Positions 23,841-24,067 of a stretch of DNA of 45,153 nt are shown piece by piece. The stretch covers positions 1-45,153 of the forward strand of contig JANQNK010000021.1 of assembly GCA_028279595.1 (NCBI GenBank). The letters are read 5' to 3'. The translations under genes were made by a program, and so were the position numbers. Each line of letters begins with the position of its first letter. Positions within the stretch are counted from its first letter, which is position 1. Under the pieces are notes generated by a model that had not been told where the DNA came from, searched no databases, and worked only from the letters and a program-made list of their open reading frames with translations. The stretch comes from Thermoplasmatota archaeon. GTDB taxonomy: Archaea; Thermoplasmatota; JAKEGO01.

Positions 23841-23926
23841 TGAGAAGAAGGGCCGCGGGGGTTCATCCCGCCCCCACGGCGGGTTTCGTGTTTTGTGAAC
23901 GGCACGCGGAGGGATGACGCGTACGC
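23841..23926 (-). ncRNA. Candidate two-hairpin kissing-loop small RNA
   Basis: TTTATAAA at 23948-23955; stems GUACGCG/CGCGUGC and GCCGUGGGGG/CCCCCGCGGC; loops UCAUCCC and GGGAUGA are complementary; ends in CCUUCUUCUC. Confidence 0.55.
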
Positions 23927-24067
23927 AGGACCATCGAGGCTTTGATATTTATAAATTCCTCCAACCGGCGCCAGGGGGTCCTGGGGCTGGTGAGCGTGAG
24001 GGTACTGGCCCCCCTTTTCGCGATAAAGAAAGATATTTAACCGAGACCTGCGATGTGGTCCCCCCAC

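What the first reader, a model, noticed from the sequence alone, without database searches (positions are those of the whole stretch)
23841..23955. Candidate novel kissing-loop small RNA with its own promoter
Seen, on the minus strand: TTTATAAA (23955-23948), then about 25 nt later hairpin 1 GUACGCG-UCAUCCCUC-CGCGUGC (23924-23902), an A/C-rich linker (CACAAAACACGAAACCC), hairpin 2 GCCGUGGGGG-CGGGAUGAA-CCCCCGCGGC (23880-23852), and CCUUCUUCUC. The two 9-nt loops are complementary over 7 nt (UCAUCCC/GGGAUGA). Each stem has a G-U pair that becomes a C-A mismatch on the plus strand, which supports the minus strand. The downstream pilin-like gene has its own TATA box. Inference: a standalone structured ncRNA, or a riboswitch-like leader, that I cannot match to a family I know.
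Basis: partly seen in the sequence, partly recalled or inferred. Interest (0 to 1): 0.8.

Follow-up and report, generated by a model that had tools for sequence, protein, structure and literature searches.

The report
Conserved kissing-loop small RNA, archaeon
An uncultured archaeon has a tiny gene, uncatalogued in Rfam, for a two-hairpin RNA that is conserved as tightly as a tRNA within one genus-level group; its 5' end may pair with the cell's signal-recognition-particle RNA, but that target is only a lead.

Summary
In five other sequence variants from metagenomes, both hairpins and a 14-nt A/C linker are 91-100% identical to the window. Neutral codon sites are only 43-63% identical and the spacer about 50%. 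A BRE/TATA box sits at an invariant distance from the first base of hairpin 1, while the distance to the next gene's promoter varies. This points to a standalone minus-strand RNA of about 73-83 nt, not a leader or peptide. Rfam has no match. No homologue was found in the sister genus or in 400 phylum genomes, and this scan has not noted it on other DNA. The kissing loop is plausible but unproven: there is no covariation, and two relatives shorten it to 6 bp. New lead: nucleotides 1-18 pair (18 bp, 2-nt bulge) with helix 6 of the genome's own SRP RNA, the best non-self match in the genome. Chance after multiple testing is roughly 10-25%, so it stays a hypothesis (about 0.2). Expression was not tested.

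The parts
23956..23962 (-). BRE-like purine box of the RNA's promoter
   Evidence: conserved in all 5 relatives that cover it; 31 nt from its end to base 1 in all six sequences
23948..23955 (-). TATA box; starts 31 nt before base 1, as for leaderless genes of this genome (mode 29-31)
23933..23934 (-). A/T at -10/-9, as in this genome's leaderless promoters
   Evidence: conserved in the alignment
23902..23924 (-). Hairpin 1 (7-bp stem, 9-nt C-rich loop 23917-23909); G23924 is the inferred transcription start
   Evidence: 5' arm and loop invariant; 3' arm changes only in L303/L304
23907..23924 (-). nt 1-18, complementary to SRP RNA helix 6 (G000 C10, within 46989-47314); hypothesis only
23897..23901 (-). 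variable 5-nt linker part
   Evidence: 0-2 of 5 identical in relatives
23883..23896 (-). invariant single-stranded A/C-rich linker (two ACRAAAC units)
   Evidence: 13-14 of 14 identical in 6 relatives
23852..23880 (-). Hairpin 2 (4 bp, mismatch or bulge, 5 G-C bp, loop 23870-23862 complementary to loop 1 over 7 nt, 6 in L303/L304)
23842..23851 (-). pyrimidine-rich tail, probable terminator, like the tails behind this genome's tRNA genes
23815..23822 (-). separate TATA box of the downstream leaderless gene (context)
   Evidence: 30 nt before its ATG; also present in G001 and G002, which lack the element
23154..23792 (-). downstream 212-aa gene, DUF7287-like / pilin-like by model features only (context)
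   Evidence: no Pfam hit; ESM Atlas 0.94 to DUF7287 clusters
24068..24141 (+). divergent tRNA-Val(CAC) gene (context)

Best explanation
A standalone small RNA of about 73-83 nt is transcribed from its own archaeal promoter, starting at G23924 and ending in the pyrimidine tail (identity as an sRNA gene: about 0.85). Most likely mechanism: a self-masked base-pairing RNA. Hairpin 1 (5' arm plus C-rich loop) is the recognition strand. Loop 2 carries a short copy of the target and holds loop 1 shut by an intramolecular kiss until a better partner displaces it. The best candidate partner is helix 6 of the cell's own SRP RNA: the loop covers the GGAG tetraloop and the 5' arm extends the duplex to 18 bp, which would unfold the S domain and damp or remodel SRP. 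Shown: sequence, conservation, fixed promoter spacing, computed fold and complementarity. Inferred: transcription, the kiss, trans pairing and the target (SRP specifically about 0.2).
For: Purifying selection is confined to the hairpins and the A/C linker, at 91-100% identity against 43-63% at fourfold sites. BRE-to-base-1 spacing is 31 in six of six loci; spacing to the next promoter varies 28-33. No reading frame is conserved on either strand. nt 1-18 vs SRP helix 6 gives -29.6 kcal/mol, the best non-self hit on both strands of 2.3 Mb; z -4.67, with 2 of 600 GC-matched segments as good and 9 of 3000 genomic 18-mers as good. The match starts exactly at the inferred 5' end and covers the tetraloop; the G at -1 in five relatives adds a 19th pair against this genome's SRP. 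Hairpin 1 plus isolated helix 6 favours the hybrid by about 9-10 kcal/mol. nt 1-17 are invariant wherever covered, while the 3' arm and loop 2 tolerate changes.
Against: No covariation anywhere in the RNA, and no SRP sequence from an sRNA-bearing relative could be fetched, so co-evolution is untested. The 18-mer was chosen after seeing the match; for nt 1-23 the SRP ranks only about 8th. Allowing for about 26 SRP-lengths of stable RNA puts chance at roughly 10-25%, and a noisy control gave 2 of 60 random 73-mers as good. Cofolding with full-length SRP RNA gives no net gain (S domain alone -6.6), before counting the kiss, helix 6-8 packing or SRP19. L303 loses the last pair. The invariant linker is not explained by this model.
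Confidence: 0.38

Rival explanations
1. A standalone RNA that works by its shape: the two hairpins stack through the kissing helix and the A-rich linker docks in the minor groove or binds a protein, giving a compact protein-binding, scaffold or ligand-binding RNA. The SRP match is chance.
For: Loops, stems and the 14-nt A/C linker are nearly invariant. The two-hairpin fold dominates, with P(hairpin 1) 0.95-1.0 in five of six variants folded. The kissing helix is worth about -10 kcal/mol as a duplex, and the 21-nt linker is long enough to span the stack (inference).
Against: No partner protein gene is evident nearby. L303/L304 shorten the kiss without compensation, and L303 largely loses hairpin 1 in the computed ensemble (P 0.01). 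No covariation.
Confidence: 0.33
2. A cis-acting attenuator or riboswitch for the downstream pilin-like gene: the loop 1-loop 2 kiss controls termination or read-through, in the manner of the guanidine-IV riboswitch.
For: Architecture of hairpin, then GC-rich hairpin, then pyrimidine tail, directly upstream of the same gene in all loci. A kissing loop that controls a terminator is known (PMC11611296).
Against: The gene has its own TATA with leaderless spacing and keeps it in G001 and G002 without the element. Spacing to it varies and no upstream ORF frame is conserved. No riboswitch family matches.
Confidence: 0.1
3. An mRNA-targeting sRNA: the C-rich loop masks Shine-Dalgarno plus AUG regions, like M. 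mazei sRNA162.
For: Loop 1 resembles the 16S anti-SD tail and is complementary to a GGAGG-G-AUG start.
Against: The only matching real gene start is ribB. Its TATA lies 30 nt before the ATG, so the match is probably not transcribed. The longest exact antisense match anywhere is 13 nt. The genome is only 86% complete.
Confidence: 0.11
4. A DNA-level element (inverted-repeat operator or cruciform) or a chance structure.
For: The two loops form a 7-bp inverted repeat; folding z alone is weak.
Against: Conservation edges coincide with the stem ends; wobble pairs fit only the minus-strand RNA; there is a dedicated promoter at fixed spacing and a terminator-like tail.
Confidence: 0.08

Closest known systems
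Archaeal intergenic trans-acting sRNAs, e.g. Methanosarcina mazei sRNA162 (PMC3510493; review PMC5867862; abstracts only)
   Same: Own promoter, intergenic, lineage-restricted, candidate base-pairing through a C-rich single-stranded loop
   Different: Much shorter; two loops complementary to each other; no mRNA target found; best predicted partner is a stable RNA
Guanidine-IV riboswitch (PMC11611296)
   Same: Upstream element kisses the loop of a terminal hairpin that is followed by a pyrimidine tail
   Different: No Rfam match; archaeal; the downstream gene has its own promoter and is not a guanidine exporter
Trypanosome sRNA-85, a second RNA of the SRP (PMC2800229)
   Same: Precedent for a small extra RNA associated with SRP
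   Different: sRNA-85 is tRNA-like and mimics Alu-domain contacts with the ribosome; this RNA is not tRNA-like and would pair with helix 6 of the S domain; association untested
SRP RNA Alu domain (helix 3/4 loop-loop pairing, PMC2905702)
   Same: Two hairpins with complementary loops
   Different: 21-nt linker instead of a UGUNR turn, no closing helix; the genome has a complete separate SRP RNA
Plasmid antisense hairpins CopA-CopT and RNAI-RNAII (own knowledge)
   Same: Loop-loop nucleation followed by extension into a longer duplex
   Different: Not cis-encoded opposite a target; the complementary loop lies within the same molecule

Membership tests
Any Rfam 15 family | Covariance-model score at the gathering threshold | tested here: not met
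   best 20 bits against a cut-off of 70 (g2), hairpin 2 only
Standalone archaeal sRNA gene | Own BRE/TATA at fixed distance, terminator-like tail, no conserved ORF | tested here: met
Standalone archaeal sRNA gene | Discrete transcript detected | not testable with these tools
Kissing-loop RNA | Complementary loops conserved | tested here: met
   6 of 7 pairs kept in all 7 distinct sequences; 7th lost in two
Kissing-loop RNA | Compensatory loop-loop changes | tested here: inconclusive
   no two-sided change in any pair; columns are invariant
RBS-masking sRNA (sRNA162 type) | Extended complementarity to a transcribed translation start region | tested here: not met
   genome is 86% complete
Riboswitch or leader attenuator | Lies in the 5' UTR of the gene it controls | tested here: not met
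   downstream gene has its own TATA 30 nt before ATG, also in genomes without the element
Riboswitch or leader attenuator | Ligand binding | not testable with these tools
   needs probing
Split SRP or RNase P RNA piece | Host SRP or RNase P RNA lacks the corresponding domain | tested here: not met
   full-length SRP (C10) and RNase P (C1) RNAs are present
Box C/D guide RNA | Box C near the 5' end and box D (CUGA) near the 3' end | tested here: not met
   no CUGA in the element
H/ACA guide RNA | Pseudouridylation pocket, K-turn or K-loop, and conserved 3' ACA | tested here: not met
   no internal-loop pocket; 3' ACA absent in L049, L303 and L304
SRP-antisense RNA (proposed) | Complementarity to own SRP RNA above chance | tested here: inconclusive
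   top genome-wide hit for nt 1-18, about 10-25% chance after correction
SRP-antisense RNA (proposed) | Co-variation with SRP helix 6 across species | not testable with these tools

The most novel reading that the evidence does not exclude
A dedicated, self-masked antisense RNA that invades helix 6 of the archaeal SRP RNA, and so controls or remodels co-translational protein targeting at the RNA level, in a lineage whose SRP RNA has also lost the UGUNR turn of its Alu domain.
Probability: 0.2. Interest if true: 0.85.

Novelty: new variant of a known kind. Interest (0 to 1): 0.52.

Why it matters
Few structured small RNAs are known from uncultured Thermoplasmatota. This one has a sharply defined gene (promoter, start, end) and tRNA-like conservation, and at under 85 nt it can be synthesised and probed directly. 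If the SRP pairing is real, it would be a small RNA acting on the SRP RNA itself; my paper searches found no such case in archaea. That would add a layer of control on membrane-protein targeting. If not, it remains a compact kissing-loop orphan RNA of one genus-level group, of moderate interest.

Tried and rejected
Rfam scans: no family. BLAST, pattern and covariance-model searches of the two other genomes of the class, 150 phylum genomes (model) and 400 phylum genomes (patterns): only weak hits, none with both hairpins and kissing loops. G001 is 73% and G002 82% complete, so this means 'not found', not 'absent'. Exact-loop pattern scans of metagenome and GTDB contigs gave no homologue among the loci returned (80 of 106 metagenome hits listed; the pattern would miss the L303 variant). 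Viral scans gave only chance hits. ribB as an RBS target: rejected, the gene looks leaderless. Upstream ORF from the loop-2 AUG and antisense ORF from loop 1, including the 307-aa extension of the glycosyltransferase ORF: lengths and frames are not conserved. Split SRP or RNase P piece: rejected. Loss of SRP19 as a rationale: rejected, it is present. Compensated anti-helix-6 RNA in G002 or 60 phylum genomes: none recognised among the few loci inspected. Stable alternative fold (switch): none within 5 kcal/mol except in L303. From memory I also considered hammerhead, T-box, guanidine-II and CreT; their core motifs are absent.

Full report
Setting. The window is contig C15 of a 2.29-Mb, 86% complete genome. 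It is an archaeon of the Thermoplasmatota: close glycosyltransferase relatives are named Thermoplasmata or Thermoplasmatota archaeon. Its class holds only three GTDB species. The element lies between a divergent tRNA-Val(CAC) (24068-24141, +) and a 212-aa gene (23792-23154, -). That gene has no Pfam hit and resembles DUF7287 proteins by language-model features.

Observation. In one sequence this is weak evidence. Folding z is -0.8 to -1.45. Two 7-bp hairpins with 7-nt complementary loops occur at seven other places in the genome and about 1.3 times per Mb in shuffles, though never with an AT box at promoter distance. Rfam gives no family.

Conservation. Through homologues of the two flanking proteins I fetched syntenic metagenome loci L049, L050, L051, L052/L053, L303 and L304. 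Against the window, hairpin 1 is 91-100% identical, the A/C linker 13-14 of 14, and hairpin 2 93-100%. The 5 nt after hairpin 1 score 0-2 of 5, the upstream spacer about 50%, and fourfold-degenerate sites of the neighbouring genes 43-63%. Conservation begins at the first base of hairpin 1 and ends in the pyrimidine tail. The few changes fit the structure: in four relatives the only hairpin-2 changes are the two bases that face each other as a mismatch, and L304 turns a G-C into G.U. L303 adds one broken pair. L303/L304 lose one G of loop 2 and one C of the stem, which shortens the kiss to 6 bp. No pair changes on both sides, so covariation neither supports nor refutes stems or kiss.

Transcription unit. 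The BRE-like box lies 31 nt before base 1 in all six sequences that cover it, although the bases in between diverge. The distance from hairpin 2 to the next TATA varies from 28 to 33. Leaderless genes of this genome have their TATA 29-31 nt before the ATG and A/T at -10/-9, as here, and tRNA genes are followed by similar C/U-rich tails. AUG-initiated frames on either strand vary freely in length and frame. The downstream gene keeps its own promoter in G001 and G002, where the element is not at this locus. I infer a standalone minus-strand RNA from 23924 to about 23850-23842.

Range. I found no homologue in the sister genus (G001, 73% complete; it has an unrelated C-rich spacer at the syntenic site), in G002, or in the phylum samples. 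Pattern scans of metagenome, GTDB and viral contigs added none. The scan's own notes hold no look-alike. As far as detectable, the family is confined to one genus-level group.

Targets. The longest exact antisense match in the genome is 13 nt. Loop 1 is complementary to the start of ribB, but ribB has a TATA 30 nt before its ATG, so the matching bases are probably not in the mRNA. Screening stable RNAs showed loop 1 complementary to helix 6 of the genome's SRP RNA (helix assignment from the Rfam alignment). nt 1-18 form 11 + 7 bp around a 2-nt target bulge, cover the GGAG tetraloop, and score -29.6 kcal/mol, the best non-self site genome-wide. For nt 1-23 the SRP ranks about eighth. Nulls: 5 of 2000 shuffles, 2 of 600 GC-matched segments over all windows, 9 of 3000 genomic 18-mers, and 2 of 60 random 73-mers in a noisy control. 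Scaled to all stable RNAs this is roughly a 10-25% chance event. The other Thermoplasmatota SRP RNAs that were correctly extracted score about -15 to -24, as expected under either reading. Hybrid formation is favoured by about 9-10 kcal/mol for isolated helix 6, 6.6 for the S domain, and not at all for full-length SRP RNA; none of these counts the kiss or tertiary packing. The helix-6 tetraloop adenosine compacts the archaeal S domain, and SRP19 coexists with helix 6 (PMC2905702), so invasion there would matter. SRP19 is present. This genome's SRP RNA also has a UUCG hairpin in place of the UGUNR turn, which G002 and most others examined retain in some form. That is a single-lineage coincidence, not evidence.

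Mechanism. My preferred reading (0.38) is a self-masked base-pairing sRNA: loop 2 copies the target and shields loop 1, and the SRP RNA is the best candidate partner (about 0.2 on its own). Nearly as likely (0.33) is an RNA that acts by its compact kissing-loop shape, which explains the invariant A-rich linker better. An mRNA-masking sRNA (0.11), an attenuator (0.10) and a DNA element or chance (0.08) are less likely. Shown: sequence, conservation, fixed promoter spacing, computed structures and complementarity. Inferred: transcription, the kiss and any partner.

Comparison and verdict. It works like an archaeal intergenic sRNA but belongs to no catalogued family. It fails tests for C/D, H/ACA, riboswitch leader and split SRP or RNase P membership. 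It is very probably a real small-RNA family, undescribed as far as my searches reach and narrowly distributed, with an unproven kissing loop and one testable, surprising target lead. Interest 0.52.

Noticed in passing
L306:1501-1560 (G000 C10, SRP RNA 5' part): The SRP RNA Alu domain has a 5-bp UUCG hairpin in place of the conserved UGUNR U-turn; G002 keeps the usual motif.
   Followed up: partly
L049:2787-2850: About 63 nt including the tRNA-Val(CAC) TATA box are missing, leaving only the small RNA's TATA about 47-58 nt upstream of the tRNA; either bidirectional use or an assembly slip.
   Followed up: no
L003:1230-1480, L299:300-590, L300:2620-2880: The sister genus has a different, strongly C-rich spacer of about 250 nt at the syntenic site, with a repeated 12-nt motif and a small hairpin. 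One 18-nt stretch pairs with helix 8 of G000's SRP RNA at -27.6 kcal/mol (2 of 300 random segments as good, but best of about 90 windows), probably chance.
   Followed up: partly
L298:2660-2900: Two tandem units of about 90-100 nt next to tRNA-Val(CAC), each ending in a copy of the tRNA's terminal bases.
   Followed up: no
G000 C7:12773-12681 (-): Another two-hairpin element with 8-nt complementary loops, a pyrimidine linker and an AT box just upstream; unrelated in sequence.
   Followed up: no
window 23914-24837 (+): The 307-aa ORF is an artefactual extension of the 231-aa glycosyltransferase through the tRNA; not conserved in relatives.
   Followed up: yes
L309:3170-5255 (G000 C7): Riboflavin gene cluster beginning with a leaderless ribB (Pfam PF00926), followed by genes that look like FAD synthetase, riboflavin synthase and lumazine synthase by eye.
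   Followed up: partly
L287:1501-1579 (-) (G062): Weak model hit: a strong terminal hairpin whose loop region is complementary to an upstream stretch, plus an A/C-rich linker; not homologous by sequence, context not examined.
   Followed up: partly
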